From Minisyncoccota bacterium (GTDB taxonomy: Bacteria; Patescibacteriota; Minisyncoccia; UBA6257; 1-14-0-10-40-38), in the NCBI GenBank assembly GCA_020052135.1, contig JAGVPS010000028.1, positions 1 to 34,055 on the forward strand: a stretch of 34,055 nucleotides of DNA, given 5' to 3'. Under the pieces are notes generated by a model. That model saw nothing but the letters and a program-made list of their open reading frames with translations. It did not search any database and was not told the origin of the DNA. Made by a program: the position numbers and the translations under genes. Position 1 is the first letter of the stretch. Every line of letters starts with the position of its first letter. Shown here piece after piece: positions 5,809 to 34,055 of this stretch.

Positions 5809-7442
5809 TAAAAGACACAAAAGCGAGAGCAATGATCCTTATCTGTATTCTCGCCGTTGCGCTCGGATTACGCCTCTGGGGTCTGGGAGTCCAGGAATTT
5901 GTCGGAGACGAGGGCGCGTATGCGTTCCGTTCCGCGCTCTACCTGGATTACCTCGGCACCAACTTTCAAACACAGCCGATTGATTGGTACGCCAGTACAG
6001 AACTTCCCTCATGGACACAACTCTCTTTTCACGATCATCCTCCGCTCGGGTTTCTTATACGGCATTGGTTTTTTAGTATTTTTGGCGCGACTCCGTTCGT
6101 GGCGCGACTCCCGGGCGTACTTCTCGGCGTGTGTTCAATCGGATTGCTCTATGGAATTTTGAGAAGAAGTCCGATTTTTAAAGACGCGTCTGAATCGTAT
6201 GCATTGTGGGGCGCTCTTCTCGCATCAGTAAGCGGAGCCATGATCTGGAGCTCGCGCGCGGTTCTCCTTGAGCCGTTTGCATTGTTCTTTATTCTTGCAT
6301 CGCTCTATGCCTTTACCCGTTTTACCGAGGACCGTCGGTGGTGGTGGGCGTTAGGCATTGCCTTGGGTTTATCGCTCATCACCAAATACACCACCATTAT
6401 TCTTCTTCCGGTTTTTCTCGTCTATCTCCTGGTATATTATCGGCGGATATTCCGCGATGTACGGCTCTACGGAGCCCTACTCCTCGCACTCCTCTTTCTT
6501 TCTCCGGTTATATCCTACAATTTCAATCTCTATAAAGAGCGAGGGCATTTTGATTTACAGCTCGCCTATGTATTTCAACAAGCGACTCCAGAGTGGACTG
6601 GTCTTCTTGGAAAAAGCGAAGCTCCATTCCGCGAGATTGGAGGACGGACGCGAGATCTCTATGGCGTGAGCGAAATTATAATCGGACTTGCGGGTCTCGG
6701 TGTCATAGCGTTGTTTTGGAAGCGCGCGAATAAGAAAACCGTTGTGCTATGGGCGGCGTATATAATCGGATGTTTTGGTCTCTTCGTGTTGGTCGGAGTG
6801 GCGGAACGATTCATCGTACTCCTTGTTCCCGCAATGGTCGCGCTCGGAGCCGTTCTCTTCGGGGAGATGTTTGATCGAAGTGGAAAAGGCATAAAAAAAT
6901 ACATTGCTCCTGCCCTCCTCATACTTATAGTGTTTAGTGGATCAACTCGATATCTCGCGAATGTCTATAACACAGGAGTTATCGAGCTTGATCAGTATCT
7001 CAGCAAAGAATTTCAGGATACATCATCTGTCGCGCTTCCAAACACGGAGAATCCTCATCTAAACGGCATTATCAAAAAAAACGCGGAGGCGCACTCATCA
7101 GGAAGGCCAACTCGGACGCTCATCGTGTATAGTGATACGCTCGCGCTTCCTTCGCGGTTGTGGCTTTTTGATCGAAGGCTTCTCTTGGAGGGTATTCCGG
7201 TATTTTATGTAGAGGGATTTTCAGAAGCCGTGAAAGCAAACCCCGCAGTTTTTCAAGGGTTTTCAGCGTATTTTATGCAGGCCACGGAATACGGATTTTT
7301 AAATCCATTCAAGAAGGGTAATCAAGCAGGAAATGAATTTGAAAAAACGCTTGTATCGCAAGGGATAGAACCGGTGCGCAGTATATACGGACACGACGGA
7401 CTTCCTATGTTTCGCGTATATACATTTACTATCGAATCTTAA
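5805..7442 (+). CDS. PMT/ArnT-family (GT39/GT83-like, GT-C fold) membrane glycosyltransferase
   Basis: N-terminal TM followed by LRLWGLGVQEFVGDEGAYAFRSALY (the DE motif loop typical of PMT_2/ArnT-like enzymes). Many TM segments and a C-terminal extracytoplasmic domain. ATGA start overlap with the upstream gene. Confidence 0.8.
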   Translation: MIKDTKARAMILICILAVALGLRLWGLGVQEFVGDEGAYAFRSALYLDYLGTNFQTQPIDWYASTELPSWTQLSFHDHPPLGFLIRHWFFSIFGATPFVARLPGVLLGVCSIGLLYGILRRSPIFKDASESYALWGALLASVSGAMIWSSRAVLLEPFALFFILASLYAFTRFTEDRRWWWALGIALGLSLITKYTTIILLPVFLVYLLVYYRRIFRDVRLYGALLLALLFLSPVISYNFNLYKERGHFDLQLAYVFQQATPEWTGLLGKSEAPFREIGGRTRDLYGVSEIIIGLAGLGVIALFWKRANKKTVVLWAAYIIGCFGLFVLVGVAERFIVLLVPAMVALGAVLFGEMFDRSGKGIKKYIAPALLILIVFSGSTRYLANVYNTGVIELDQYLSKEFQDTSSVALPNTENPHLNGIIKKNAEAHSSGRPTRTLIVYSDTLALPSRLWLFDRRLLLEGIPVFYVEGFSEAVKANPAVFQGFSAYFMQATEYGFLNPFKKGNQAGNEFEKTLVSQGIEPVRSIYGHDGLPMFRVYTFTIES

Positions 7443-8635
7443 CAAGACGCGCGGTACAATGCTTCGGTTTTCTGTATCATCAAGGAAAGGCTAAACTCTG
7501 TTTGCAAGCGATGCCGGGCTTCTTTTCCAAAGATTTGAGCTCTATAGTGATCTCGCATGAGTTCTTGAAAAGCCCGGGAAAGGCGTTCGGGGTTTTTTTG
7601 AGGAACTACCATGCCCGTTGCGTCGTGCATGACGACTTCAGGCATTCCGCCCGCGTCAGTAACGACTGCTGGGATTCCCGCGGCACAGGATTCAAGAAGC
7701 GCATAGGGCAGGCCTTCTTTTACAGAGGTGAGCGTAAAAAGGTCGAATGCTTTCAGAAATTTTGCATCATCTCCAGTAGGAGGTATCAGAAAAAACCTAT
7801 CTTGTAATTGCCCGCCTGCCGGCGAGGCAGGGTAATTGGTAATTAGTAATTGGAGTTTTGAGTATTCCGGTCCTGCGCCAATGATAAAGAAATACGCATT
7901 TGGAACGAGCGCCGCTGCTTGAATGAGAGTGGCGTAATCTTTTTCTTTGGTTAGTCGGCCGATGGAGCCGATCCAGGGTTTAGCAACTAGTAATTGCCCG
8001 CCTGCCGGCGAGGCAGGGTAATTAGTAATTGGTAATTTTGAAATAATTGCCTTTCGCGCGGAAACCTTATCCAGGAAAGTAAGGTTTTGATAATCAATCC
8101 CATTGTGGATGGTGGTTAACTTTTTAGAAGGCGCTATGGCATAGCGGAGCGCAAGTTTGTAGTCGTATTCTGATACGCAAATAATGTAGTTCTGAAAATA
8201 CGCAGCCATACGATGAAGGCGTATATAAACAAAACGGGCAACAGGAGAAAGTGCGTTTGATGGATTAAAAACCCAGCCATGGGCGGTGAAGATTACTTTT
8301 GCAGGTAAATGGTAAATGGTAAATGGTAAATGATTGTAAAGAAATGCGGCAAACGAGCCGATTACTCCTGCCTTAGAGCTGTTCAGGTGGATAATATCCG
8401 GGTGCTCTTTTCGATATACGCTCATGAGTGAAAAAAGCGCTCTCCAGTCATTTGCGAAGAGCGCGTACCAGGCGATTTTATTTGAAAGCGAGGGAATATC
8501 AACGCCTCCCCGTATGACGCGAATGTCAAAAGAGGCGCGGTCAAGATGTGAGGCGAGATCTGCTACATACTTTTGAGCGCCTCCTACGTCATCTTTGGTG
8601 ATGACATAGAGCACCTTTTTACGTTGCTCATCCAT
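7439..8635 (-). CDS. GT4-family (GT-B fold) glycosyltransferase carrying three in-frame repeat insertions
   Basis: N-terminal VLYVITKDDVGGAQKY and C-terminal EGLPYALLESCAAGIPAVVTDAGGMPEVV (E-x7-E region) are GT4 hallmarks. The stop overlaps the convergent 5805-7442 gene by 4 nt. Confidence 0.85.
   Translation of the reverse strand: MDEQRKKVLYVITKDDVGGAQKYVADLASHLDRASFDIRVIRGGVDIPSLSNKIAWYALFANDWRALFSLMSVYRKEHPDIIHLNSSKAGVIGSFAAFLYNHLPFTIYHLPAKVIFTAHGWVFNPSNALSPVARFVYIRLHRMAAYFQNYIICVSEYDYKLALRYAIAPSKKLTTIHNGIDYQNLTFLDKVSARKAIISKLPITNYPASPAGGQLLVAKPWIGSIGRLTKEKDYATLIQAAALVPNAYFFIIGAGPEYSKLQLLITNYPASPAGGQLQDRFFLIPPTGDDAKFLKAFDLFTLTSVKEGLPYALLESCAAGIPAVVTDAGGMPEVVMHDATGMVVPQKNPERLSRAFQELMRDHYRAQIFGKEARHRLQTEFSLSLMIQKTEALYRASC
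7804..7853 (-). repeat. Hairpin-plus-heptamer cassette, copy 1 (in frame, encodes ..LLITNYPASPAGGQLQ..)
   Basis: The plus strand reads GTAATTG-CCCGCCTGCCGGCGAGGCAGG-GTAATTG-GTAATTA-GTAATTG-G. It is an imperfect GC palindrome flanked by GTAATTN heptamers. Confidence 0.9.
7990..8037 (-). repeat. Hairpin-plus-heptamer cassette, copy 2 (in frame, encodes ..LPITNYPASPAGGQLL..)
   Basis: The plus strand reads GTAATTG-CCCGCCTGCCGGCGAGGCAGG-GTAATTA-GTAATTG-GTAATTT. It is a direct repeat of copy 1, exactly 186 nt away. Confidence 0.9.
8304..8331 (-). repeat. Perfect tandem heptamer (GGTAAAT)x4 inside the GT4 coding sequence
   Basis: Four uninterrupted units at 8304-8310, 8311-8317, 8318-8324 and 8325-8331. 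They encode HLPFTIYHLP on the minus strand. Confidence 0.95.
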
Positions 8636-17012: not shown

Positions 17013-17014
17013 CT

Positions 17015-17058
17015 CCGCGAGATCGGCATATGCGTATGCAGAGACTCGCGGTTTTTTT
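17015..17058 (+). terminator. Rho-independent terminator
   Basis: CCGCGAG (17015-17021) pairs with CTCGCGG (17045-17051), followed by T7. Confidence 0.7.
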
Positions 17059-17112
17059 ATATGCGCAATCTAGAGAATTCTCTGGCCGTTTCAGATTAGG
17101 GGTAAAGCGCAT

Positions 17113-17175
17113 ATAAAACCCCGCCGTTGGCGGGGTGAAGCTTAGATACCACGGCCGTGAGGCCGTAGAGCTTCA
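17113..17175 (-). terminator. Double-hairpin terminator module, copy R (begins with the TGA stop of the oxidoreductase gene)
   Basis: The minus strand reads TGAAGCT-ct-ACGGCC-TCAC-GGCCGT-ggtatcta-AGCTTCA-CCCCGCC-AAC-GGCGGGG-TTTTAT. It has the same architecture as 12818-12880. Confidence 0.75.
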
Positions 17176-20439: not shown

Positions 20440-20782
20440 CTTTACGGGATTTAGTGGCGAGCACAATCCACGTAGTGTCCTCTAAAAATTTCATGGCATG
20501 GACACGGAGCGGTGGCGAAAACACCATATCGCCGGTTTCAAGAACAGCGCTTTCTTTTTTACTGTTATCTTCGTCAATACCTTTTTCAAAATACTCCATT
20601 TTTCCAGCGACCATATAGCAATAATGCGAATCCTCCTTATGATAGTGGTTTGCGCGTACCGAACCTTTCTTTGAGGTGATAATAAGCACGCTCTTAATCA
20701 CGGTTATGCCATCATCAAAAAGCATGGTGATGTTGCCTCGTTCTTCAGCTACTTCCGGTTTGATGTTGCGGTATATTTTCAT
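20396..20782 (-). CDS. Cupin-fold sugar-nucleotide epimerase/isomerase-like protein
   Basis: GSVRANHYHKEDSHYCYMVAGKMEY...GDMVFSPPLRVHAM is a cupin pattern seen in WxcM/FdtA/CapF-C-like proteins. I chose the internal ATG (MKIYRN), but the ORF is open to 20818. Confidence 0.65.
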   Translation of the reverse strand: MKIYRNIKPEVAEERGNITMLFDDGITVIKSVLIITSKKGSVRANHYHKEDSHYCYMVAGKMEYFEKGIDEDNSKKESAVLETGDMVFSPPLRVHAMKFLEDTTWIVLATKSRKDGAYEEDTVRVPFI

Positions 20783-20867
20783 GCACTTTACTATACCTAT
20801 AGGAGCCATGAAAAGCAACGGATGACCAAAGGTTTTTAGATATGGTTTGATATGCTATGGCTTTCAT

Positions 20868-23105
20868 ATGAATAAAATCTTTTTTGTCTCAACAGCGCGA
20901 GTGCCAACGCAACGAGCGCACGGACTTCAGATTATGAAAACCTGCGAAGCGCTTGCCAACGCGGGCGCCGACGTAGAACTCGTTATTCCCTCCCGGTTTA
21001 ATGAGCTTTCGGATGACCCGTTTGACTACTATAAAGTTCAACGCAACTTTAACATCCGCACGATCCGATCGCTTAATCTTGCGCCGCGTCGGGAACCCGC
21101 GCATCCGGTTTTTTATTGGATTCAAGCATGGACGTTTGCACTATCAGCGCTCCTGTATCTATGGAAAGAAAAGGATGCATACATTTATTTCCGATACGAC
21201 GTACCCCTCCTCATCACTTTTCAAGCTTTTTTCAGGCGGCGCATGCTTGTATGTGAAGCGCATTTTTTAATTCACGGACGGGCTAAGCGGTTACTACTAC
21301 GTTGTTTTGGGGTCATAACAATTGTGGATGCTGCAAAAGAAATATATGAACGTGCAGAAGATTTCAGCGACAATATACTTGTCGCTCCCGATGGGGTCAC
21401 CGTTTCAGACTTTAATATTTCTGTTTCACAAGCCGAAGCCCGGAAGCGTCTCGGGCTACCGCACGAAAAAAAACTCATACTGTATACTGGCTATTTCTAC
21501 GCGTGGAAAGGGGTAAATGCTTTAGTAAAGGCAGTACGGTATCTGAATGAGAATATAGAGATTGTACTCGTAGGTGGATATGAAAAAGACAGGCAACAGA
21601 TTGAAAAGATTATGGATGAGGAAGAATTTTCTGAAATCGAGCGTCGCCGAGTGACCATCATCGGCCATCGTCCCTATGCGGAGATGCCCTATTATCAACG
21701 AGCAGCTGATTGTCTCGTCGTGACCGGAGTTAAAAAGGGAGATCGATCAATGTTCACCTCGCCGCTCAAGCTTTTTGAATATATGGCATCCGGTGTTCCG
21801 ATAGTTGCCTCTGGCAATGTTTCGATAAAAGAGGTGCTTACGCATCAAAAGAATGCATATCTAGTCGAACCAGAGAATCCCCGCGCACTTGCTGTAGCGG
21901 TTACCGCAGTGCTTTCAAATATGCGACTGGCTGAGCGTATTGCGTTGCAGGCACGCACAGATGTTCTTAAATATGATTGGGCTATACGCGGTAAAAAAAT
22001 ATGGGACTTTATGTCCAAGCAACAAAAAGCGCCTCGTGTGGCATATCTATTTGCTGGGAAACGAGAGTCGCTTATTCAAAACGTGCGCGCGCACATGGCG
22101 CCAGATTCAGAACTTATCGGATTGAATTATCTGTATCGATTTGGTATCCGGGGTACGTTTTTGGAAACACCCCTCATGAATATGCTAAGAAAGCTGTTTT
22201 TTAATGCGGCGCAATTGCCGGCATTGTGGAGGGTGAGGACATATGACGTTGTGTTCCTGGGATCTAACCTGCCGTTTGTTTTCCTGATAAAGAAAATTTT
22301 GCATTGGCAGCGCCCGCGCGTGGTGCTCTATAATACATTTTTTACCCATACGCTAAAGCGCCATCCAAACGGGTGGTATGGCGCGCTCCTGCGGAGCGCG
22401 CTCCGTTCCGCTGATGCTATTGTCTGCCCCACAGAAGCGCAGACAGACTTTTTAAAGAAGGAAAAAATAGATTCCCATCGCATTCACCTGGTGCTGAATG
22501 GCGTAGATACAGATTTCTTTGCTCCTGCGAGAGCTGATCTTTCAGAAACCGATGGATATATTTTGAGTATTGGAAAAGATCTCGGCCGTGATTACCCGAC
22601 ACTCATTGCGGCGGCATCACGCATACCGGAGACTACTTTTTATATTATTGCGGCAGAAAGAAACCTCAAGAACGTGCCTGCACTGCCAGCGAACATAAAA
22701 GTTTTTTTTGATGTGCCGCACAAGGAAACGCTCGCGTTTTATCGCAAGGCCAAGTTTGTTATAATTCCTACGTATTCCGAAGAAAGTTTGCGGGGATCCG
22801 ACTGCTCGGGCCAATATGCGCTTCTTGATGCCATGGCTGCGAGGAAGGCGATCATTGTGAGTAGCCGAAGCACCCTCTCGGATTACATTGAAGCAGGAAA
22901 GGATGCACTCATCGTGAAGGCCGAGGATCCCGATGAGCTCATAACCGCCATTCGACTCCTTGGAAATGATAGTGCGCTCCGAGATCGCTTAGGGAAGGCG
23001 GCATTAGCAAAAGCAGAAGAGCGGTTTACCACAGAAAAGCTTGCTGAACGGCTCAGTATTGTTTTCAGATCAGTTTCACATCGCTCGTTTTACCTTTATG
23101 AATGA
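20868..23105 (+). CDS. Fused double glycosyltransferase (two GT4-like GT-B modules)
   Basis: Module 1 has KIFFVSTARVPTQRAHGLQIMK and SPLKLFEYMASGVPIVAS. Module 2 starts near PRVAYLFAGKRE and has GQYALLDAMAARKAIIVSS. I chose the ATG at 20868 over the TTG at 20847. Confidence 0.8.
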   Translation: MNKIFFVSTARVPTQRAHGLQIMKTCEALANAGADVELVIPSRFNELSDDPFDYYKVQRNFNIRTIRSLNLAPRREPAHPVFYWIQAWTFALSALLYLWKEKDAYIYFRYDVPLLITFQAFFRRRMLVCEAHFLIHGRAKRLLLRCFGVITIVDAAKEIYERAEDFSDNILVAPDGVTVSDFNISVSQAEARKRLGLPHEKKLILYTGYFYAWKGVNALVKAVRYLNENIEIVLVGGYEKDRQQIEKIMDEEEFSEIERRRVTIIGHRPYAEMPYYQRAADCLVVTGVKKGDRSMFTSPLKLFEYMASGVPIVASGNVSIKEVLTHQKNAYLVEPENPRALAVAVTAVLSNMRLAERIALQARTDVLKYDWAIRGKKIWDFMSKQQKAPRVAYLFAGKRESLIQNVRAHMAPDSELIGLNYLYRFGIRGTFLETPLMNMLRKLFFNAAQLPALWRVRTYDVVFLGSNLPFVFLIKKILHWQRPRVVLYNTFFTHTLKRHPNGWYGALLRSALRSADAIVCPTEAQTDFLKKEKIDSHRIHLVLNGVDTDFFAPARADLSETDGYILSIGKDLGRDYPTLIAAASRIPETTFYIIAAERNLKNVPALPANIKVFFDVPHKETLAFYRKAKFVIIPTYSEESLRGSDCSGQYALLDAMAARKAIIVSSRSTLSDYIEAGKDALIVKAEDPDELITAIRLLGNDSALRDRLGKAALAKAEERFTTEKLAERLSIVFRSVSHRSFYLYE

Positions 23106-23976
23106 CATGCCGTGTTTTGTATGTGGAGGAAAAGGAGAAAAAGTTTTTTACACTGTTGAGGAAAAGAAATTTTTATCGTGCATGGGGTGCGGCCTGATTA
23201 GCCTGGAGCAGATTCCAGGCGCGCAAGAATTTTATGCGCATTATAATGAGCGATATTATACCAAGGACTATGCAGGGCGGGGAGAGCGCTCGTTTCCTGA
23301 TTTTTCATATCGCTTCAGGTTTCTTGACCGGTTCATTTCCCCTCCGGGGAACGTGCTCGAAGTGGGCGCGGCAGGAGGAGAATTTTTAGAGCTCTTAAAA
23401 AAACGGGGCTGGGAAGTTTCAGGAGTCGAGATTTCAGAACCTGCAGTGCGTGCCGCACACCGCAATTACGGCCTTACGCTGGAGCAGGGCGTGCTTGAGG
23501 ATGTGGCCTATCCCTCAAATACTTTTGATGTGGTCCTGCTCTATCACGTGCTTGAACATGTGCGGTATCCCTTAGAAACTCTCGCGGAGATACGGCGCAT
23601 TCTGAAACCGGGCGGATCAATCATCGTTGAACTTCCAAATCCAACCGGCTTTGATGCGCGCGTGAGCGCCACATTGCTCGAGAGCGTTCTCGATTATCCC
23701 AATCATTTGCATCTCTTTCCAAAAAATACTGCTCGGCGTATACTCGTGCAATCAGGTTTTGGCGAAACGGCATGTGAGGCATCCTTTTCTTTCGCGCTCG
23801 CCTCTCTCTTACCTCATTTTAAGAGGGGCTACGCCAGAGCGAAAAGGACAGAGGAGGGCGAAACAATCATTCCTCTTCCCGAGAAATATATGACTTTGCC
23901 TCCTCAAAGAGCACGATCGCTTCTCGGGCGACTATTTCCAGGGATGAAGTTTACCATCCGGGCAATAAAGATATAG
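23098..23976 (+). CDS. Class I SAM-dependent methyltransferase with N-terminal zinc ribbon
   Basis: The ATG at 23098 overlaps the upstream stop (ATGAATGA). CFVCGG...CMGCG, then VLEVGAAGGEFL (motif I) and LKPGGSIIVELPN. Confidence 0.8.
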   Translation: MNDMPCFVCGGKGEKVFYTVEEKKFLSCMGCGLISLEQIPGAQEFYAHYNERYYTKDYAGRGERSFPDFSYRFRFLDRFISPPGNVLEVGAAGGEFLELLKKRGWEVSGVEISEPAVRAAHRNYGLTLEQGVLEDVAYPSNTFDVVLLYHVLEHVRYPLETLAEIRRILKPGGSIIVELPNPTGFDARVSATLLESVLDYPNHLHLFPKNTARRILVQSGFGETACEASFSFALASLLPHFKRGYARAKRTEEGETIIPLPEKYMTLPPQRARSLLGRLFPGMKFTIRAIKI

Positions 23977-23990
23977 CGAGACGCATATAT

Positions 23991-25028
23991 ATGAAAGACA
24001 CGCCGAAGCGTTTAAAGGGCAAAAAATTTTTGATATGTGGAGGATCGGGTTTTATGGGTTCGAACTTTATTCATTTCCTCATGAAGACTGTTCCGGATAC
24101 CCACGTCGTGAATCTTGACGCGCTCACCTATGCGGGGAATCCTGATAATCTTCTCGGGGTGCCTCCGGGTCGCTATCGATTCAAAAAAGGGGATATCTGC
24201 GACGAAAAGCTGGTGGGACAGTTAATGAAAAAAGCGGACTTCGTCATCAATTTTGCCGCAGAGACTCATGTCGACAGATCCATTCATTCTGACCAGAATG
24301 ACTTTATACACACAAATATACTCGGGGTGCATTCTTTGCTGAAGGCGTTTCGCAAAGCCGCCCCTTCTGCCGCAAAAATGATTCATGTTTCAACCGATGA
24401 AGTATGGGGAGATCTCCCCTTGAGCGCTAAAGGACGCTTCTCTGAAAAATCCCCCTTTAGGCCTAATTCTCCCTATGCCGCTTCCAAAGCGGCAGGCGAC
24501 CTCCTCATTCGTTCGTATACGAAAACATACGGAGTTCCCGTCATTGTATGCAACTCAGTGAATTTTTTTGGCCCTCGGCAATTCCCAGAAAAACTTATTC
24601 CCTTTTTTACGTTGCGCGCCATGGAAAATGAGCCACTCCCGCTCTACGGGAATGGCAAAAATATTCGCGAATGGATTCATGTTGAAGATTATGCAAGGGC
24701 GCTCCTCGTGCTTTGCAATCGAGGAAAGACGGGAGAAATATACCTTGCATCCAGCGAGGAAGGTGTATCTAATATATCTATTGCCCGGCGGATCTTAAAA
24801 ATACTAAAAAAACCGGAAAGCCTCATTACCTTTGTTGCCGATCGCCCAGGGCACGACCGCAAGTATGCGGTTAACACTTCGAAGCTTCGGGCACTTGGTT
24901 GGTCTCCACGATACTCCATTACGCGCGATTTGAGCGCCACAGTCAATTGGTATGCCCAGAATACCCGATGGGTACAACGAGTACTCGGTCGCGAGAAAAG
25001 GATTAATGCTCATATCCGACTTACCTAA
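23991..25028 (+). CDS. rmlB: dTDP-glucose 4,6-dehydratase
   Basis: FLICGGSGFMGSNF, LDALTYAGN, HVSTDEVWG, PNSPYAASKAAGDLL, GPRQFPEKLIP and IREWIHVEDYARAL are canonical RmlB motifs. Confidence 0.9.
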   Translation: MKDTPKRLKGKKFLICGGSGFMGSNFIHFLMKTVPDTHVVNLDALTYAGNPDNLLGVPPGRYRFKKGDICDEKLVGQLMKKADFVINFAAETHVDRSIHSDQNDFIHTNILGVHSLLKAFRKAAPSAAKMIHVSTDEVWGDLPLSAKGRFSEKSPFRPNSPYAASKAAGDLLIRSYTKTYGVPVIVCNSVNFFGPRQFPEKLIPFFTLRAMENEPLPLYGNGKNIREWIHVEDYARALLVLCNRGKTGEIYLASSEEGVSNISIARRILKILKKPESLITFVADRPGHDRKYAVNTSKLRALGWSPRYSITRDLSATVNWYAQNTRWVQRVLGREKRINAHIRLT

Positions 25029-25031
25029 TCT

Positions 25032-25778
25032 ATGAAAGGAGTAATTCTCGCTGGTGGGAATGGCACGCGTTTGCATCCGCTTACCTTCGTAACAAATAAG
25101 CATCTCCTGCCCGTCTATAACAAGCCGATGATTTATTGGCCGATCGAGACGCTTGTTCAATGCGGCATTACGGAAATTCTCATCGTCTCAGGCCGCGGAC
25201 ACGCAGGGCATTTTTTAAATTTGCTTGGTTCGGGGAAAAAGTGGAATGCTCGTTTTACGTACGAAGTGCAGGAAAATGCTGGAGGCATTGCGGATGCGCT
25301 CTCCCTGGCAGAAGATTTTTCCGATGGAGGCAAAATCGCTGTTATTTTGGGTGACAATATTTTTACGGCAGTCGGCGAGATTAAAAAAGGCATTAATCGT
25401 TTTACGCGGCAAAAAAGGGGAGCTATGGTTTTTTTGAAGCAGGTCAAAGACCCGCATCGATTTGGCGTTGCTGAAATCAGGAAGGGAAAGATTGTCGGTC
25501 TTGAGGAAAAACCGCGGCATCCGAAATCAAAGTTTGCGGTAACCGGAATGTATCTTTACGATGAGAACGTATTTGATATTATTCGCGCCCTCACACCATC
25601 GGGGCGTGGCGAGCTCGAGGTCACTGACGTAAACAAGGCATATGTAAAGCAGGGAGTTATGTTTCACACCATCATCTCCTCAGAATGGCGAGACGCGGGG
25701 ACATTTGATTCGTTGTTGGAAGCAAATGTGCTTATTGCTCGCGCAGAGCGTTCGACAAAACGCAAAAACGGAAAATAA
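25032..25778 (+). CDS. rmlA: Glucose-1-phosphate thymidylyltransferase-like sugar nucleotidyltransferase (short form)
   Basis: MKGVILAGGNGTRLHPLT...NKHLLPVYNKPMIYWPIETL. It lies immediately downstream of rmlB. Confidence 0.8.
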   Translation: MKGVILAGGNGTRLHPLTFVTNKHLLPVYNKPMIYWPIETLVQCGITEILIVSGRGHAGHFLNLLGSGKKWNARFTYEVQENAGGIADALSLAEDFSDGGKIAVILGDNIFTAVGEIKKGINRFTRQKRGAMVFLKQVKDPHRFGVAEIRKGKIVGLEEKPRHPKSKFAVTGMYLYDENVFDIIRALTPSGRGELEVTDVNKAYVKQGVMFHTIISSEWRDAGTFDSLLEANVLIARAERSTKRKNGK

Positions 25779-25782
25779 TTTT

Positions 25783-26472
25783 ATGAAACTCTCGATACTC
25801 ATCCCGGCATATAATGAGGCGCGCACGATTGCGAAGGTTATAGAGCAGGTAAAAAAAGTTGATCTCGGCCGCATCGTGAAAGAGATTATCGTCATAGACG
25901 ACGGATCAACAGATGGAACTGCGGATAATGTTTCTGCGGGTACGGCAGAAGTGCTTCGTCTCTCGAAAAATCAAGGCAAGGGATCGGCAATCAGGGCAGG
26001 TTTTGCCAAAGCCACGGGAGATATCGTCCTTATCCAGGACGCCGATCTTGAATATTCTCCGGAAGATATTCCAACGCTCATCGCCCCGATTATTGAGGGA
26101 AGCGCGGATGTGGTATATGGATCCCGCTTTGTAGGGGACAAGCCGCACCGCGTGCTCCTCTTCCATCACTACATGGCGAACCGATGCATTACTTTTTTTT
26201 CTGACCTCTGTACAAATTTAAACCTCACAGATGTCGAAACTGGCTACAAAGCATTTTCCCGCGCCGCGATAGATCGAATTCTTCCTCGTCTCGTATCATA
26301 TCGATTTGGTATCGAGATTGAGCTTACGGCACGGGTTTCCAAGGCTTCGCTCCGCGTGTACGAGGTCGGCGTTTCCTATCATGGTCGCACGTATGCGGAG
26401 GGCAAGAAGATCCGTTGGACCGATGGGCTTGCGGCGCTTTGGCATATCATCCGTTTTAATCTTTTTTCTTAA
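25783..26472 (+). CDS. GT2-family glycosyltransferase, small DPM1/Ppm1-like
   Basis: ATG at 25783 (the ORF-track extension to 25705 overlaps rmlA). SILIPAYNEARTI, VIDDGSTDGT and IQDADLEYSP. Paralog of 12113-12820. Confidence 0.85.
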   Translation: MKLSILIPAYNEARTIAKVIEQVKKVDLGRIVKEIIVIDDGSTDGTADNVSAGTAEVLRLSKNQGKGSAIRAGFAKATGDIVLIQDADLEYSPEDIPTLIAPIIEGSADVVYGSRFVGDKPHRVLLFHHYMANRCITFFSDLCTNLNLTDVETGYKAFSRAAIDRILPRLVSYRFGIEIELTARVSKASLRVYEVGVSYHGRTYAEGKKIRWTDGLAALWHIIRFNLFS

Positions 26473-26477
26473 AACCT

Positions 26478-27041
26478 ATGGGAGATAGATTTTGTGAACC
26501 AATATTCCGGTGGCTCCGCATTCGGCGAATGAAGTTGTTTTTGAATGCCCAAACGAATTTGCTCGATGTGGGTTCAGGCGCCGAGGGCACGATGCTGAAG
26601 GATTTAAGCCCCTACATCAAAGCAGGGGTGGGCATTGATTTGCGCGCGGAGCCGTATGAGGAGGGGAATATAAAAATCCAGCAGGTTGAGTTTGACGAGA
26701 AACCGCTTCCGTTTGCCGATAGCTCGTTTGACTGCGTTTCGCTCCTTGCAACGCTGGAGCACATGAACCGCCGAGTTGAGCTTCTCGAGGAAATTCGCCG
26801 CGTTTTGAAGCCCGGAGGAGTGCTTATCATCACCGTTCCCACATGGGCCGCAAAGCCCATACTCGAGTTTCTTGCGTTTCGGTTGAAGATTGTAAGTGAC
26901 GTGGGAGTGAAAGAGCACAAAACGTATTTTTGGAAAGCGGAGCTCGTGGAAGCGCTCAAAAAAGCCGGGTTTTCCCCGGAGCAAACTACAGTGAACTATT
27001 TTGAATTAGGGTTCAACTTGTCCGCGGTAGCGCGCAAATAG
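26478..27041 (+). CDS. Class I SAM-dependent methyltransferase
   Basis: LLDVGSGAEG (motif I), LATLEHM and LKPGGVLIITVP. Confidence 0.8.
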   Translation: MGDRFCEPIFRWLRIRRMKLFLNAQTNLLDVGSGAEGTMLKDLSPYIKAGVGIDLRAEPYEEGNIKIQQVEFDEKPLPFADSSFDCVSLLATLEHMNRRVELLEEIRRVLKPGGVLIITVPTWAAKPILEFLAFRLKIVSDVGVKEHKTYFWKAELVEALKKAGFSPEQTTVNYFELGFNLSAVARK

Positions 27042-27044
27042 AAC

Positions 27045-28178
27045 ATGAGTAAACCAAAACTCTGCTATGTGATACCGGAATATAACAGTGAAGCGCATAC
27101 GCATTTTGCCTATCTTACCCCCTTTATTCGTGCTTTGTCCGAAACATTCGATATTTGGCTCGTAGTTGAGCGGGGCACAGCGCCGCCGGATATGGGAACG
27201 GTGCGGGTATCTGTGGCGCGCATGCGCATCCCACTTTTGCGACTCATAAACATAAAATTCTTGCTGTTTTGGGCACGTGTCTCTGGGTATAAAGATTTTT
27301 ACGTACACTACTCTTTCTTTTCGGCATATGTCGCTTCGGTCATTGCGCGCGTAACGGGTGGGCGGGTGTTCTATTGGAATTGCGGTGAGCCATGGAAATA
27401 TAAACGGAATTTTTTCCGCGAAGCGTTTGAGCGAACGGTGTACTCGCTCGTGACGTATCTTGTGACGGGCACGGAAGGAATGAAGCAGGCATACGCGAAG
27501 CACTATGGGTTGTCGCTCGAAAAAATAAAGGTAATGCCGAATTGGGTGGATATCTCAAATATAAAATCTCAAATCGCAAATCTTAGCACTAAAGATATAA
27601 AAAAAGAACTCAATATTTCCAAAGATACAAAAATCATCTTGTTTGCGCACCGGCTTTCAAAGCGAAAGGGTGCGCACTATCTACCGGAAATTATAAAGGC
27701 TTTACAAAATGAGAATGTTGTTCTTCTCATCGCTGGTGATGGTCCTGAAAAAGAAAATATCCAATTACAAATTACCAATTACCCTGCCTCGCCGGCAGGC
27801 GGGCAATTACAAAATCGCGTGCAATTTTTAGGGTGGGTGCCGCAAAAAGATACGGCGCAGTATTTTGCTATCGCCGATGTATTTATTCTACCCTCCGAAG
27901 AGGAGGGGTTCCCGCACGTGATATTGGAATCAATGGCATATGGCGTACCCTCTGTCGCGTTTAACGTAGGGGGAGTGAAAGAAATCATTTTGCCAGAGCT
28001 TTTAACGTATGTTGTTGCTCCGGGCGACACGGCTGAATTTATTAGAAAAGTAAATACGCTTTTAGATATATCTTTAGAAAAAAGGAATTCACTGCAGGCG
28101 CGTATGAACGCTTGGATACGAAAATATGATCTTTTATCTTCAGTATCTATTTTTAAAAAAATAGCCCAGATAGTATAG
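27045..28178 (+). CDS. GT4-family glycosyltransferase carrying one in-frame cassette copy
   Basis: ILFAHRLSKRKG, AGDGPE and EEEGFPHVILESMAYGVPSVAFNVGGVKEII. Confidence 0.85.
   Translation: MSKPKLCYVIPEYNSEAHTHFAYLTPFIRALSETFDIWLVVERGTAPPDMGTVRVSVARMRIPLLRLINIKFLLFWARVSGYKDFYVHYSFFSAYVASVIARVTGGRVFYWNCGEPWKYKRNFFREAFERTVYSLVTYLVTGTEGMKQAYAKHYGLSLEKIKVMPNWVDISNIKSQIANLSTKDIKKELNISKDTKIILFAHRLSKRKGAHYLPEIIKALQNENVVLLIAGDGPEKENIQLQITNYPASPAGGQLQNRVQFLGWVPQKDTAQYFAIADVFILPSEEEGFPHVILESMAYGVPSVAFNVGGVKEIILPELLTYVVAPGDTAEFIRKVNTLLDISLEKRNSLQARMNAWIRKYDLLSSVSIFKKIAQIV
27761..27810 (+). repeat. Hairpin-plus-heptamer cassette, copy 3 (in frame, encodes ..QLQITNYPASPAGGQLQ..)
   Basis: CCAATTACAAATTACCAATTACCCTGCCTCGCCGGCAGGCGGGCAATTAC equals the reverse complement of 7804-7853 at 49 of 50 positions. 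Confidence 0.9.
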
Positions 28179-31284: not shown

Positions 31285-32595
31285 ATGGCAAACAAGAGAA
31301 AAGAAATTCTAGTAATTGCTCTTGTCGTTGTAGGGATATTACTCCGGGGAGCATTGCTCGGATGGAATAGCTATGAGCACGGCGACGTCGCGCAGTATGC
31401 CGCCGCGGCAGAGTCCTTTGCCGAACAAGGAAATTTTCTCATTGATGCGAATGTCGAAAAAGACTATTTCTATTCGTTAAAAGAATTGGGCGGGCAACAC
31501 CTAGAGCACAACCCCTTATGGCCTTTCCTGGGCGGGATTTTTGTTTTTATTTTTGGCATGTCCGGATACCACGCACTTCAGATACTGTCCTTCATAAGCG
31601 GCGTGGCACTGCTACCGCTCATCTTTATACTTGGTAAAAAACTAGGAGGGTACGGAACAGGGCTACTCGCACTTATTTTCGGAACGTTTTCATACGCGCT
31701 CATAGATTTTTCGGCGAACGGCTCCTTTTATATCTTTCAAGCAGTACTCTATGTGCTGTTTCTTCTCGGAATGCTCGACATGGAAAAACCCGCTCGCGCG
31801 GCCTTTGTGTGGGCAATCATGGGTGTTGCATTGCTTTTGAATCAGCAGAACATAGTGCTCTTAGCGGCGTATGTTCTGTATACGTTTATATATTTTCGAG
31901 GCAACTCAAAACGCGCGATGATCTATGTCCTCTGTTGCATTGGAATAGTTGCCGTTATCCAATTGCCGTGGTGGATTCGTAACTACGTGCTCTTTGAGTC
32001 GCCACTCCACTCGATCGATATAACCTATGTATGGGACAAGATTGGGGTTCCCCGTACCGTGACTGACCACGTTATTTCCTACGCCGTTACGCCACAAACG
32101 TATCTTACGCTCGCAAAAACCTCTCTTTCATCTTGGCTACCGCACAATCTGTACTTTATGCATCGGAAATTCTTTGTGGTGGCACCCCTCGTATATATCT
32201 TTGCACTTTTTTCCTTGGCAGAAGCCTTCTTTGGGGAAAAACTGAGGGAGAAAAAACAGCTGCTTATTCCTCTCCTCTTACTATTCGCGTTCTACGTCGG
32301 CATATCCACGATGTGGCCGATTGCAAAATTTCGCTACCTCATTCCACTCCTGCCTCTTATATTCGTACTTGGCTCTTGGTATATGACCGCACACATGAGG
32401 AACAGAACAGGGAGAACAGTAAGCATAGCGATGAGCATTGTCACAGTTTTTGTTTTTTCAGTGCTTACATTCTTTGGAACGCCCTCGCACACCTACTATT
32501 ATGATGGCGTTATAACGACCGATAATTTCGGGAAACGCGGCGAGCTGGATTTTATCAATGGATATGAAACTATAGTAGGTGATAGAGAACAATGA
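31285..32595 (+). CDS. GT-C-like (PMT/ArnT-like) polytopic membrane glycosyltransferase
   Basis: TM1 followed by GWNSYEHGDVAQYAAAAESFAEQGNF, then many hydrophobic segments. Confidence 0.7.
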   Translation: MANKRKEILVIALVVVGILLRGALLGWNSYEHGDVAQYAAAAESFAEQGNFLIDANVEKDYFYSLKELGGQHLEHNPLWPFLGGIFVFIFGMSGYHALQILSFISGVALLPLIFILGKKLGGYGTGLLALIFGTFSYALIDFSANGSFYIFQAVLYVLFLLGMLDMEKPARAAFVWAIMGVALLLNQQNIVLLAAYVLYTFIYFRGNSKRAMIYVLCCIGIVAVIQLPWWIRNYVLFESPLHSIDITYVWDKIGVPRTVTDHVISYAVTPQTYLTLAKTSLSSWLPHNLYFMHRKFFVVAPLVYIFALFSLAEAFFGEKLREKKQLLIPLLLLFAFYVGISTMWPIAKFRYLIPLLPLIFVLGSWYMTAHMRNRTGRTVSIAMSIVTVFVFSVLTFFGTPSHTYYYDGVITTDNFGKRGELDFINGYETIVGDREQ

Positions 32596-32693: not shown

Positions 32694-32705
32694 ATTTTAC
32701 CTATT

Positions 32706-32751
32706 AGAAAATCACGTCAATTGAACGATCGTCCAATTGACGTGATTTTCT
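32706..32751. terminator. Perfect 18-bp-stem hairpin between convergent genes (bidirectional terminator candidate)
   Basis: AGAAAATCACGTCAATTG (32706-32723) pairs with CAATTGACGTGATTTTCT (32734-32751). The 10-nt loop AACGATCGTC is itself partly palindromic. Confidence 0.75.
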
Positions 32752-32759
32752 ATGTTTTC

Positions 32760-33437
32760 CTAAAAAAAATTTTTTATAACTGACCAAACATAGCGGTGGG
32801 CTACTTTCCATACCTGGAAGCGGGAAGAACCGAACTTCCGCCGATATTCGTGGCTGGGCACGTCCTGGACGCGATACCCGCGCTTCAGGCATTGCATGAG
32901 CATCTCTTGTTCAATCGTCGTAATGTTTTCGCGGAGCGTGAGCGATCTCGCAACGTCGGTTTTAATAGCGCGGAACCCATTTTGGCTGTCGGTCAAGCGA
33001 ACATTGAATCGATAGTTGATAGCAAGCACAATCAGGTGCCCGCCAACATTTCGGATGAAATCCGCGACTGTTCCCCATGCTTCATCCGAGCCCCCGAGAC
33101 TGCGCGAGCCTATCACGAGATCAGCTTTATTTTCGAGAATGGGCGATGTAAGTCTTGGGATATCCGTGGGTTCATGGGACCCATCAGCGTCGATAAAAAC
33201 TATAATAGATCCGAGCGCATGGGTAATCCCTACCTTAATCGCATCCCCCTTGCCTTTTTGATGGTCAAGAAAAATTCGCGCCCCGAGAGATTCTGCGATG
33301 GTTCGAGTTTCATCGATCGAATGTCCGTCAATGAGCAAAATTTCGTCGCCATACGGGCGAACGTGAGCAATAATGTCGCCAATAGTTTTCGCTTCGTTCT
33401 TAGCGCATATAACAATGGATATAGTGATTTTTTTCAT
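32760..33437 (-). CDS. GT2-family glycosyltransferase, small DPM1/Ppm1-like
   Basis: ATG at 33437 (MKKITISIVICAKNEAKTI). LLIDGHSIDET and FIDADGSHEP (DxD). Confidence 0.85.
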   Translation of the reverse strand: MKKITISIVICAKNEAKTIGDIIAHVRPYGDEILLIDGHSIDETRTIAESLGARIFLDHQKGKGDAIKVGITHALGSIIVFIDADGSHEPTDIPRLTSPILENKADLVIGSRSLGGSDEAWGTVADFIRNVGGHLIVLAINYRFNVRLTDSQNGFRAIKTDVARSLTLRENITTIEQEMLMQCLKRGYRVQDVPSHEYRRKFGSSRFQVWKVAHRYVWSVIKNFF

Positions 33438-33442
33438 ATCGC

Positions 33443-34055
33443 TCAGAGCGCATATATACACTGCGCGCCTTTTTCTTCATACACTTTTTTGAGCGCGGGC
33501 ATCGGTATGCATGTTTCGCTCAAGATATAGTCCGCCTGAAATTGCTCGGCAACTGTACGGATCATTTCAGGATTGTGCGCCGCGTAGGCAGCTTCCACGA
33601 GCTGTTTACGATTATACCATTCGACGAGATTATTTGATGAAGGAGCGATTGCCGCGCCATCACGGTAGTGGTATACGAGGCCGCGAAGCGCACATACCCT
33701 AAAGGGCGGGAACCGTTGAGGGTCAATCAGGAATAAGCTGTCCTCGGCCGTATGTTCGCGGATCCACCCGTAGAGTGTTGGAGCGCAGGTGTCGGCAACA
33801 GGAGTGCTACGCTTAAGGTTTAAAAGTGTTATTGCATGAGAAACTTTTTCTCGTGCAAGAAATATTCCGGCTCCGAGGCACATAATGAGAAGCGCCATAC
33901 AGATAACACGTGTTCGTAGGGTGGTAGAACTGAAAGATTTAAGTTTTTGAAATAGCAACGCAAGGGAAAATCCCAGATAGAGGTATAGAATAAAATAAAT
34001 GAAGCGGAGCGCGCGCGGCTCTTCTATAAGAAACGGAGGTATTTTTAAAAATATT
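33443..34055 (-). CDS. Membrane protein, C-terminal part (N-terminus beyond the 3' window edge); possibly another GT-C-like protein
   Basis: The reading frame stays open from the ORF-track TTG at 33958 up to nt 34054 (..FIYFILYLYLGFSLALLFQKL..), so the gene continues outside the window. It has hydrophobic segments followed by a soluble C-terminal domain. Confidence 0.6.
   Translation of the reverse strand, partial: IFLKIPPFLIEEPRALRFIYFILYLYLGFSLALLFQKLKSFSSTTLRTRVICMALLIMCLGAGIFLAREKVSHAITLLNLKRSTPVADTCAPTLYGWIREHTAEDSLFLIDPQRFPPFRVCALRGLVYHYRDGAAIAPSSNNLVEWYNRKQLVEAAYAAHNPEMIRTVAEQFQADYILSETCIPMPALKKVYEEKGAQCIYAL

What the first reader, a model, noticed from the sequence alone, without database searches (positions are those of the whole stretch)
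27761..27810. Third cassette copy in a diverged GT4 gene: 49/50 nt identical, same frame, inverted about 19.9 kb from copy 1
27761-27810 equals the reverse complement of 7804-7853 at 49 of 50 positions. The flanking codons of the two genes are diverged (GPEKENIQLQ / NRVQFLGWVPQ versus GPEYSKLQLL / DRFFLIPPTGD). Because the genes lie on opposite strands, the cassette is again in the same reading frame and at the homologous structural position. DNA conservation far above that of the host genes implies recent spread, gene conversion or selection on the nucleotide sequence itself. The two copies form inverted repeats. Recombination between them would invert 7854-27760 and exchange the 3' thirds (about 365 nt each) of the two GT4 genes in frame, producing chimeric enzymes. 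That would be a shufflon-like route to surface-glycan variation. No recombinase gene is present in the window, so this remains a hypothesis.
Basis: partly seen in the sequence, partly recalled or inferred. Interest (0 to 1): 0.8.

Follow-up and report, generated by a model that had tools for sequence, protein, structure and literature searches.

The report
Tiny in-frame hairpin repeat, not shufflon
The 50-base "cassette" is a copy of a 21-base GC-rich hairpin repeat, sitting in a run of 7-base repeats, that is scattered in frame through many unrelated genes of candidate-phyla-radiation (CPR) bacteria; nothing shows that it acts as a DNA-inversion switch.

Summary
27761-27810 matches the reverse complement of 7804-7853 at 49/50 bases. 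It is read in the same frame (ITNYPASPAGGQL) at the homologous helix-to-strand loop of two GT4 genes that are only about 25% identical, and their DNA similarity stops at the element's edges.

The cassette is not private to this locus. It has two parts:
- a 21-nt palindromic core, CCTGCCTCGCCGGCAGGCGGG (27783-27803), equal to 7 codons;
- a heptanucleotide array (CAATTAC-type) in which the core sits.

Evidence:
- The identical core occurs in 101 independent contexts in groundwater and sediment metagenomes, usually inside a heptamer array whose unit is specific to each locus.
- 58 contexts lie in long ORFs of about 94 Pfam families (UvrD, LigA, aaRS, TsaD, PGK and others). They are strongly biased to the sense strand and to the PASPAGG frame.
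- GT4B orthologues lack exactly the 7 residues. A Harrisonbacteria orthologue keeps the CAATTAC array with no core, which is an empty site.
- An AlphaFold model places the insert in a surface loop.

Both GT4 genes are colinear with their own orthologues and neighbours. The window has no recombinase, and no chimeric protein was found. The shufflon idea is therefore unsupported.

Best reading: an RPE-like, in-frame-tolerated selfish mini-repeat, which I found no description of in CPR. How it moves is unknown.

The parts
27783..27803 (+). 21-nt GC-rich palindromic core CCTGCCTCGCCGGCAGGCGGG (stem CCTGCC/GGCAGG). It encodes PASPAGG, residues 247-253 of GT4B, and is the sequence actually inserted.
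   Evidence: Coordinates. 22 GT4B orthologues lack exactly these 7 residues. The Harrisonbacteria orthologue's DNA has the array with no core. Hairpin -14.6 kcal/mol, z = -2.5. The AF2 model places residues 245-254 in a loop with pLDDT about 83.
27762..27782 (+). Heptanucleotide array 5' of the core: CAATTAC AAATTAC CAATTAC, encoding (Q)LQITNY, the end of helix 236-244.
   Evidence: The same array is present without a core in orthologue P0005 (L114) and in degenerate form in P0008 (L116).
27804..27810 (+). Heptamer 3' of the core, CAATTAC, in register with the 5' array (X|core|X).
7811..7831 (-). Identical 21-nt core, "copy 1", at site 2 of GT4A. This is the position homologous to the GT4B copy, 8 residues after the GxGPE motif.
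7832..7852 (-). Heptamer array 5' of copy 1: CAATTAC TAATTAC CAATTAC.
   Evidence: Orthologue P0126 (L118) has the identical array and, at the same junction, a different 72-nt GC-hairpin insert. P0122 (L119) has a diverged core. P0129 (L117) has (AAATTAC)x5 and no core.
7804..7810 (-). 3' heptamer CAATTAC of copy 1.
7997..8017 (-). Identical 21-nt core, "copy 2", at site 1 of GT4A, in the loop before WIGSIGRL.
   Evidence: All 21 aligned orthologues lack it.
8018..8038 (-). Heptamer array 5' of copy 2: AAATTAC CAATTAC TAATTAC. The 3' side (7976-7996) reads CAATTAC TAGTTGC TAAACCC.
   Evidence: At this site orthologues carry arrays with other units: (AAACTAC)x5 in L117 and (AAATTGG)x4 in L118.
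27045..28178 (+). Host gene GT4B, a family-4 glycosyltransferase of 377 aa.
   Evidence: Pfam Glycos_transf_1 7e-38. Orthologues in Parcubacteria are at most 55% identical. AF2 mean pLDDT 92.4.
7439..8635 (-). Host gene GT4A, a family-4 glycosyltransferase of 398 aa that carries two cores and three heptamer arrays.
   Evidence: Pfam. Orthologues are at most 65% identical.
8304..8332 (-). Core-less perfect heptamer array (CATTTAC)x4 in GT4A (site 0), encoding HLPFTIYHLP.
   Evidence: Orthologues have other units at this loop: CTAAACC x8, GCATGTC x3-4, and CCCAAAC-type.
27552..27583 (+). Core-less imperfect heptamer array (ATCTCAA)x4.6 in GT4B.

Best explanation
Copy 3 is one insertion of a very small dispersed repeat found in Candidate Phyla Radiation (Patescibacteria) genomes. 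The repeat is a 21-nt GC-rich hairpin (CCTGCC-loop-GGCAGG-CGGG), which is 7 codons with no stop in any of the six frames. It sits preferentially inside A/T-rich heptanucleotide tandem arrays (consensus CAAWWWC).

The element is copied as DNA. Where it lands in a gene, it survives only if the encoded peptide is harmless, so the surviving copies lie mostly in surface loops, in the sense orientation and in the Pro/Ala/Ser/Gly frame.

In this window the three AATTAC-type arrays (two in GT4A, one in GT4B) each carry a core, and the two arrays with other units carry none. The GT4A and GT4B families both have an AATTAC-type array at the same helix-loop position, so two cores ended up at homologous positions and in the same frame. 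That is why they look like a shared "cassette".

The inverted arrangement of copies 1 and 3 follows from the opposite orientation of the two genes. It is not a designed recombination site.

Shown: composition, distribution, frame bias, empty sites, loop location and the non-chimeric state of both genes.

Inferred:
- The element is selfish or neutral.
- It is mobilised in trans by an unidentified enzyme, or by a copying process that makes no target-site duplication.
- Arrays are its preferred landing sites, rather than its by-products.
For: 1. Not private to the locus. The exact 24-mer core+CAA occurs in 112 metagenome stretches, which reduce to 101 independent contexts. One further copy lies in an intergenic region of a Woesebacteria MAG.
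2. DNA-level copying. The same DNA is read as PASPAGG (35 contexts), LPRRQAG (13), CLAGRRA (2) or antisense (8). Frame bias has p = 4e-8 and strand bias p = 2e-8.
3. Unrelated hosts. The 55 host ORFs hit 94 Pfam families, including UvrD, LigA, class-I aaRS, CysRS, TsaD, MiaA, PGK and PPDK.
4. Insertion polymorphism:
   - GT4B orthologues lack exactly 7 aa.
   - L114 has CAATTAC TAATTAC TAATTAC CAATTAC with no core.
   - Four UvrD/AddA orthologues carry the core at four different loops, each absent from the other three.
   - L038 differs from L035 by one extra 21-nt variant core with no duplication.
5. Association with arrays. 50 of 102 contexts show X|core|X with at least 5/7 matches in exact register, and 35 show at least 6/7, while X differs between loci. 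GC-rich segments between identical heptamers are mostly 21 nt long (30 of 61), followed by 42, 28 and 49 nt. Period-7 arrays are greatly over-represented in these contigs: 226, against 32 for period 6 and 79 for period 8.
6. Tolerated position. The AF2 model puts residues 247-253 in the loop between helix 236-244 and strand 259-263.
7. Similarity between the two GT4 genes stops at the element's edges.
Against: - No transposase or other mobilising enzyme was identified, and the rest of this genome is not available.
- The exact-match search design forces the core to be identical and the 3' flank to begin with CAA, so the true diversity and copy number of the family are unknown.
- Whether the arrays predate the cores or are produced around them is unresolved.
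- AATTAC-type arrays lie at the homologous position in two GT4 families that are only about 25% identical, and in several genomes. Simple random insertion does not explain this.
- P0122, the 65%-identical GT4A orthologue, has a diverged core at the same site. This means either an old insertion later re-homogenised or a recurrent hot spot, and the first option would favour gene conversion.
- Translation of the insert is inferred from intact ORFs, not shown.
Confidence: 0.7

Rival explanations
1. Shufflon-like switch. A site-specific recombinase uses the inverted copies at 7.8 and 27.8 kb to invert about 19.9 kb and swap the 3' thirds of the two GT4 genes, which would diversify surface glycans.
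For: The copies are inverted, 49/50 identical and in the same frame at homologous positions. The locus is a glycan-biosynthesis cluster.
Against: - The window has no recombinase.
- The same sequence lies in at least 101 other contexts, including essential single-copy genes, where it cannot be a switch.
- Both genes and their neighbourhoods are in the parental arrangement.
- No chimeric protein was found among 5.8 billion clusters.
- The crossover would split the C-terminal Rossmann domain.
Confidence: 0.03
2. Ectopic gene conversion between GT4 paralogues, rather than insertion of a mobile element. A short patch (array plus core) was copied from one GT4 gene to the others by homologous recombination seeded on the shared AATTAC arrays.
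For: - All three window copies share the same AATTAC-type flanks, while other loci have other units.
- Arrays of the same unit pre-exist at these sites in orthologues, which provides 21-28 nt of homology on each side.
- The core insert is exactly 21 nt with no duplication.
Against: This cannot explain the many bare cores in genes that have no arrays (LigA L096, SucC-like L107, LeuRS L108, SodA-like L033). It also cannot explain cores flanked by dozens of different heptamers. Within this genome it remains a plausible route for spread from one copy to the next, and it is not exclusive of the main explanation.
Confidence: 0.15
3. Contingency locus. The heptamer arrays (7 is not a multiple of 3), perhaps helped by the adjacent hairpin, slip during replication and switch the GT4 genes on and off, as in E. 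coli K1 neuO.
For: - All five period-7 arrays in the window lie in the two GT4 genes, and one is perfect with 4 units.
- In L114 and L117 most period-7 arrays also lie in GT4 genes.
- The neuO precedent (PMC13001214).
Against: - Arrays also sit in LeuRS, GatB, TsaD, radical-SAM and UvrD genes, and most of them are intergenic.
- Arrays are short (3-5 units) and often imperfect.
- No 7- or 14-nt indel was seen among 24 homologous locus pairs at 80-99% identity.
- Every array observed in a gene is in frame.
Confidence: 0.07
4. Assembly or sequencing artefact, with a chimeric or spurious sequence inserted into the contig.
For: The sequence is short, GC-rich, palindromic and repeated.
Against: - The core is found in assemblies from many projects and assemblers (JGI Ga..., ENA Hainich, MEGAHIT k141, NCBI MAGs), each time with different flanks.
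- It always preserves the reading frame of real genes.
- Diverged variants exist at orthologous sites.
Confidence: 0.02

Closest known systems
Rickettsia palindromic elements (RPE)
   Same: Both are dispersed palindromic repeats inserted in frame into many unrelated genes, housekeeping genes included. Both add a conserved peptide at positions compatible with the protein fold, and both show presence/absence between orthologues (review PMC10969869; here).
   Different: RPEs are about 100-150 bp, fall into ten families and are restricted to Rickettsia. This core is 21 nt (7 codons), is found in CPR bacteria, is read in several frames and is typically embedded in heptanucleotide arrays. There is no sequence relationship.
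REP / REPIN elements mobilised by RAYT (IS200/IS605-like Y1 transposases)
   Same: Both are 20-40-nt GC-rich imperfect palindromes scattered through a genome. Insertion without a target-site duplication fits single-strand "peel-and-paste" chemistry (my knowledge of the IS200/IS605 family). Here, the 21-nt differences carry no duplication.
   Different: REPs are extragenic by definition and usually occur as inverted doublets with a GTAG motif. Here, 58 of 101 contexts are inside ORFs and most copies are single. No RAYT could be looked for.
GC clusters of yeast mitochondrial genomes
   Same: Both are short GC-rich palindromic mobile sequences in A/T-rich surroundings, and both sometimes lie inside coding sequence (my own knowledge, not checked here).
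   Different: GC clusters belong to organellar genomes and are 30-60 bp long. No heptamer-array association is known for them.
Heptanucleotide coding VNTR of E. coli K1 neuO, and cyanobacterial STRR heptamer repeats
   Same: In neuO, tandem 7-nt units inside a coding region are translated only when the unit number keeps the frame (PMC13001214). STRR repeats show heptamer tandem arrays as a genome-wide feature (my own knowledge).
   Different: The neuO array is long (3-53 units), hypervariable and confined to one surface-modifying gene. Here the arrays have 3-5 units, sit in many gene classes and showed no length polymorphism. STRR repeats are mainly intergenic and carry no embedded hairpin core.
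Shufflons and invertons (Rci/sfx, Hin/hix, Bacteroides invertible regions)
   Same: Both involve inverted short repeats whose recombination would exchange the 3' ends of genes in frame.
   Different: There is no adjacent recombinase, the repeats are not locus-specific, the spacing is 19.9 kb and no second orientation is seen.

Membership tests
Shufflon / site-specific DNA inversion system | A dedicated tyrosine or serine recombinase is encoded in or next to the invertible region. | tested here: not met
   Pfam scan of 30 ORFs that cover the window found no Phage_integrase, Resolvase, Recombinase or DDE domain.
Shufflon / site-specific DNA inversion system | The crossover repeats are specific to the locus. 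| tested here: not met
   The identical core occurs in 101 independent contexts in other organisms and genes.
Shufflon / site-specific DNA inversion system | Both orientations, or chimeric gene products, are detectable. | tested here: inconclusive
   Only one contig of this organism is on record. It is in the parental arrangement by orthology and synteny, and no chimeric protein is in the database. Reads were not available.
RPE-type in-frame palindromic repeat | A dispersed palindromic repeat inserted in frame into unrelated protein-coding genes. | tested here: met
   58 of 101 contexts lie in long ORFs. The hosts hit 94 Pfam families.
RPE-type in-frame palindromic repeat | The repeat is absent from orthologues at the same site (insertion polymorphism). 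| tested here: met
   and L035 versus L038.
RPE-type in-frame palindromic repeat | Sequence or size membership in RPE families 1-10 (about 100-150 bp, Rickettsia). | tested here: not met
   The core is 21 nt and the host is a Parcubacteria-like CPR bacterium. No Rfam match. It works like an RPE but is not a member of those families.
REP/REPIN-RAYT | A short imperfect palindrome that is dispersed through the genome. | tested here: met
REP/REPIN-RAYT | Extragenic location. | tested here: not met
   Most copies are intragenic.
REP/REPIN-RAYT | A cognate RAYT / Y1 transposase is present in the genome. | not testable with these tools
MITE | Terminal inverted repeats. | tested here: inconclusive
   Only the 6-bp stem CCTGCC/GGCAGG is present. 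A 42-nt variant in L063 shares both termini.
MITE | A target-site duplication is created on insertion. | tested here: not met
   Filled and empty sites differ by exactly 21 nt with equal heptamer counts. L038's extra core brings no duplication. Bare cores have unrelated flanks. X|core|X is what any insertion into a period-7 array gives.
SSR contingency (phase-variable) locus, neuO type | A tandem repeat inside a coding region, with a unit length that is not a multiple of 3. | tested here: met
SSR contingency (phase-variable) locus, neuO type | The unit number varies between close relatives. | tested here: not met
   No 7- or 14-nt indels were found in 24 homologous locus pairs. The sample is small.
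SSR contingency (phase-variable) locus, neuO type | The repeats are confined to surface or variable-function genes. | tested here: not met
   Arrays also lie in LeuRS, GatB, TsaD, UvrD and radical-SAM genes.
GT4 glycosyltransferase (host genes) | Glyco_transf_4 plus Glycos_transf_1 domains and a GT-B fold. | tested here: met
   Pfam. The AF2 model shows two Rossmann-like halves, pLDDT 92.

The most novel reading that the evidence does not exclude
The 21-nt hairpin is an active, trans-mobilised "nano-element" and would be the smallest known mobile insertion that is routinely translated. It spreads across CPR phyla by duplication-free insertion into heptanucleotide arrays. Those arrays, which are pervasive in these genomes and hypervariable between orthologues, would be either its landing pads or its footprints. 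Together they would form a previously undescribed element-and-target system that continually remodels surface loops of CPR proteins, essential enzymes included.
Probability: 0.25. Interest if true: 0.8.

Novelty: new variant of a known kind. Interest (0 to 1): 0.55.

Why it matters
For this locus, the result removes an attractive but unsupported story of shufflon-driven chimeric glycosyltransferases.

More broadly, it points to a repeat system in CPR/Patescibacteria that I found no description of in the searched literature. The system has two parts: an exactly conserved 21-nt hairpin that is tolerated in frame in dozens of gene families, and abundant heptanucleotide arrays that differ between orthologues at the same loop.

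If the system is real and mobile, three things follow:
- It bears on how tiny, streamlined genomes still generate protein-loop diversity.
- It would affect gene annotation and orthologue alignment in CPR MAGs.
- It would give a new example of in-frame selfish DNA beyond Rickettsia.

Tried and rejected
- **Peptide search.** With a 72-aa concatenate it found only 16 word-sharing candidates and none scored, so it gave no census of PASPAGG-bearing proteins.
- **Source contig.** The look-up of encoding contigs for the window's own GT4B found nothing on record. The source genome therefore could not be searched for more copies or for a transposase.
- **Genome-contig scan.** I ran it with a 28-mer that included the ATTAC flank, which was too specific.
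- **Viral contigs.** One true copy, next to a (TCCTTTT) array. The 13 hits to a degenerate pattern lie in GC-rich coding contexts and look unrelated.
- **Rfam and tRNA scans.** Nothing found.
- **Literature.** Searches for the core sequence, the peptides, and CPR combined with palindromic, MITE, heptanucleotide or hairpin terms found no description.
- **Programmed -1 frameshift signal (heptamer plus hairpin).** Rejected because CAATTAC-type units are not XXXYYYZ slippery sites and the ORFs read straight through.
- **Protein-level convergence.** Rejected because the same DNA is read in several frames.
- **Intrinsic terminator.** Rejected for the genic copies, which lie inside ORFs and have no T-run.
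Full report
**1. Observation**

The stretch 27761-27810 is CCAATTACAAATTACCAATTACCCTGCCTCGCCGGCAGGCGGGCAATTAC. It matches the reverse complement of 7804-7853 at 49 of 50 positions and the reverse complement of 7990-8039 at 46 of 50. A 29-nt pattern covering the core and its 3' heptamer occurs three times in the window and never in 100 shuffles.

Two copies lie in the GT4 gene 7439-8635(-), called GT4A here, and one in the GT4 gene 27045-28178(+), called GT4B. All three are read as ITNYPASPAGGQL. The two proteins are about 25% identical. At the DNA level their similarity is confined to 53 nt (98%) and 48 nt at the element copies and is at background outside them.

**2. Anatomy**

Each copy is composite:
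- three A/T-rich heptamers (CAATTAC AAATTAC CAATTAC at 27762-27782);
- a 21-nt GC-rich palindromic core, CCTGCCTCGCCGGCAGGCGGG (27783-27803);
- at least one more heptamer (CAATTAC at 27804-27810).

The core folds as a hairpin of -14.6 kcal/mol, z = -2.5. It has no stop codon in any of the six frames. The AATTAC-type heptamers give TAA stops in all three antisense frames (direct reading of the sequence).

**3. What was inserted**

I aligned GT4B with 21 orthologues, all Parcubacteria-type (Harrisonbacteria, Paceibacterota and others) and at most 55% identical. They lack exactly seven residues, PASPAGG, which is the 21-nt core.

The Harrisonbacteria orthologue P0005 (L114) reads ...GAA AAT ATC CAATTAC TAATTAC TAATTAC CAATTAC AAGAC. 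This is the same heptamer array with the same number of units and no core, so it is an empty site and shows no target-site duplication.

An AlphaFold2 model of GT4B (mean pLDDT 92.4) puts residues 245-254 in a loop between helix 236-244 and strand 259-263 of the C-terminal Rossmann half. Confidence dips locally to about 83.

**4. GT4A**

GT4A's orthologues are at most 65% identical. They show three hypervariable loops that are built from heptamer arrays at the DNA level, and the unit differs between orthologues at the same site.

| Site | Window | L117 | L118 | L119 |
|---|---|---|---|---|
| Site 0 (window 8304-8332) | (CATTTAC)x4 | CCCAAAC-type | (CTAAACC)x8 | (GCATGTC)x3-4 |
| Site 1 (copy 2) | AATTAC-type array plus core | (AAACTAC)x5 | (AAATTGG)x4 | not resolved |

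At site 2 (copy 1), which is homologous to the GT4B site, the orthologues differ as follows:
- L118 has exactly CAATTAC TAATTAC CAATTAC | CAATTAC, but with a different 72-nt GC-hairpin insert at the junction.
- L119 has a diverged core, GCCTACCGGCAGGCAGG.
- L117 has (AAATTAC)x5 and no core.

Within the window, all five period-7 arrays lie in these two genes. Only the three AATTAC-type arrays carry a core.

**5. The core is a dispersed repeat of CPR bacteria**

- An exact search for the core plus CAA in JGI and ENA metagenomes returned 112 stretches, mostly from groundwater and sediment. These reduce to 101 independent contexts.
- A Woesebacteria MAG has one copy in the intergenic region after uppS.
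- In 50 of 102 contexts the 7 nt before and after the core match at 5 or more positions in exact register, and in 35 contexts at 6 or more. The heptamer itself differs from locus to locus: CAAATTC, CAATTTT, CAATATC, CAAGAAC, CAACCGA and others, with consensus CAAWWWC.
- The remaining contexts are bare cores or cores nested in a longer palindromic repeat.
- GC-rich segments bracketed by identical heptamers are 21 nt long in 30 of 61 cases. The next most common lengths are 42, 28 and 49 nt, that is, two cores or a core plus a unit. A 42-nt variant shares both termini with the core.
- Period-7 tandem arrays are strongly over-represented in these contigs: 226, against 32 for period 6 and 79 for period 8. 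Most arrays have no core nearby.

**6. Coding context**

Of the 101 contexts, 58 lie in ORFs that are open for at least 50 codons on both sides.
- 50 are in the sense orientation and 8 are antisense (p = 2e-8).
- Among the sense copies, the frames are PASPAGG 35, LPRRQAG 13 and CLAGRRA 2 (p = 4e-8).

The 55 host ORFs scanned hit 94 Pfam families, including UvrD/AddA helicases, GT4, class-I aminoacyl-tRNA synthetases, CysRS, TsaD, LigA, MiaA, PGK and PPDK. Four UvrD/AddA orthologues carry the core at four different loops, and each site is empty in the other three. L038 differs from its 90%-identical homologue L035 by one additional 21-nt variant core and nothing else.

These results show four things: the element is copied as DNA, it inserts repeatedly and independently, it is not specific to glycosyltransferases, and it survives where the encoded peptide is innocuous.

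**7. The shufflon hypothesis**

The geometry is right. Copies 1 and 3 are inverted and in the same frame, so a crossover would invert 7854-27760 and swap the 3' thirds of the two genes. The evidence is against a function of this kind:
- None of the 30 ORFs has a recombinase domain.
- The "site" is a ubiquitous repeat (section 5).
- The N- and C-terminal segments of each GT4 match their own orthogroup best. A_N and A_C are 69% and 68% identical to P0122. B_N and B_C are 61% and 48% identical to P0002. Cross-family values are about 30%.
- Gene order is conserved with related contigs. For GT4B it is methyltransferase, then GT4B, then PMT_2 downstream. For GT4A it is a divergent GT4 pair upstream and a PMT/TPR/PG-binding block downstream.
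- No protein in the 5.8-billion-cluster database resembles a chimera.
- The crossover point lies inside a Rossmann domain.

Rare RecA-dependent inversion across 50 nt of identity cannot be excluded. That would need reads, which are not available here, because only this one contig of the organism is on record.

**8. Mechanism: shown and inferred**

Shown:
- composition of the element;
- insertion polymorphism in units of 21 nt with no duplication;
- preference for heptamer arrays;
- strand and frame bias;
- loop location.

Inferred:
- The core is a selfish or neutral mini-element, spread either by an unidentified trans-acting enzyme or, within a genome, by short-patch conversion between arrays of the same unit. 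Duplication-free insertion is reminiscent of IS200/IS605/RAYT single-strand chemistry. That is a resemblance from my own knowledge, not a test.
- The frame bias reflects purifying selection for a Pro/Ala/Ser/Gly loop.

Unresolved:
- whether arrays are landing pads or by-products;
- why AATTAC-type arrays occupy the homologous loop in two distant GT4 families. One possibility is that the native consensus there, I-K-N-Y-E-L-x-D, is already close to what (AATTAC)n encodes (I-T-N-Y-Q-L), which would favour both acquisition and tolerance. This is inference.

Phase variation by heptamer slippage, as in neuO (PMC13001214), is a minor rival. Arrays also sit in essential genes, most are intergenic, and no 7-nt indels were seen among 24 homologous locus pairs.

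**9. Comparison with known systems, and novelty**

The element works like a Rickettsia palindromic element, that is, an in-frame, fold-compatible insertion into unrelated genes (PMC10969869). It is not a member of those families, being 21 nt rather than about 100-150 bp, from a different phylum and with no sequence homology.
- It resembles REP/REPIN hairpins but is mostly intragenic.
- It fails the MITE criteria for size and target-site duplication.
- Its arrays recall cyanobacterial STRR repeats and the neuO VNTR.

No Rfam family matches. Full-text searches for the sequence, the peptides or the concept in CPR found nothing. I rate it a new variant of a known kind.

**10. Verdict**

The specific shufflon claim has low interest. 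The underlying repeat system has moderate to good interest, and I score the finding 0.55 overall.

Noticed in passing
window 12817-12877 and 17116-17176: A 61-nt inverted repeat, 87% complementary. It is the same module, GTGGTATCTAAG(T/C)TTCACCCCGCC-loop-GGCGGGGTTT (a terminator-like hairpin followed by a T-run), placed after the GT2 gene 12113-12820(+) and after the GFO/IDH gene 17173-18099(-). The two copies bracket a 4.2-kb stretch of higher GC (0.54-0.565, against about 0.46 elsewhere) whose ORFs mostly lack Pfam hits. It may be a second dispersed repeat or an inserted island.
   Followed up: partly
window 32705-32752: A near-perfect 24+24-nt palindrome (TAGAAAATCACGTCAATTGAACGA / TCGTCCAATTGACGTGATTTTCTA) between the convergent genes 31285-32595(+) and 32760-33461(-). 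It could be a bidirectional terminator or an operator.
   Followed up: no
window 8304-8332(-) and 27552-27583(+): Heptanucleotide arrays with no core inside the same two GT4 genes: (CATTTAC)x4, perfect, encoding HLPFTIYHLP, and (ATCTCAA)x4.6. At the first loop every orthologue examined has a different heptamer unit.
   Followed up: yes
L117 4997-5335, 9157-9191, 10287-10775; L114 10401-10760: In the related Parcubacteria contigs, most period-7 arrays fall inside GT4 genes (7 of 8 in L117, 3 of 4 in L114). Across the wider locus set, arrays also lie in essential genes and most are intergenic.
   Followed up: partly
L002, L008, L014, L017, L022, L044, L046, L049, L056, L086, L102: The same 21-nt core is nested at a fixed point (GACGAAG|core|CAATCT) inside a longer palindromic repeat, gtcattgcgag...ctcgcaatgac. 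This composite element has itself multiplied.
   Followed up: no
L038 about 12623-12690, compared with L035 and L004; L055 523-574: Tandem cores. In L038 a variant core (CCTGCCCTCCGGGCAGGCAGG) lies directly 5' of the canonical one and is absent from the 90%-identical L035. In L055 two canonical cores are separated by a single CAATTTC unit.
   Followed up: partly
L118 (P0126) site 2, gene 513-1769: At exactly the CAATTAC|CAATTAC junction that holds the core in the window's GT4A, this orthologue carries an unrelated 72-nt insert with its own GC hairpin (CCGCCAATCGGCGG). The junction therefore looks like a hot spot for more than one hairpin element.
   Followed up: partly
L117 1851-2822 and 3464-4448: An rve-family integrase gene and what looks like a split GT4 gene (a 196-aa ORF plus a 96-aa Glycos_transf_1 fragment) lie close to the GT4 cluster of this related contig. 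I did not examine whether the split is at a heptamer array.
   Followed up: no
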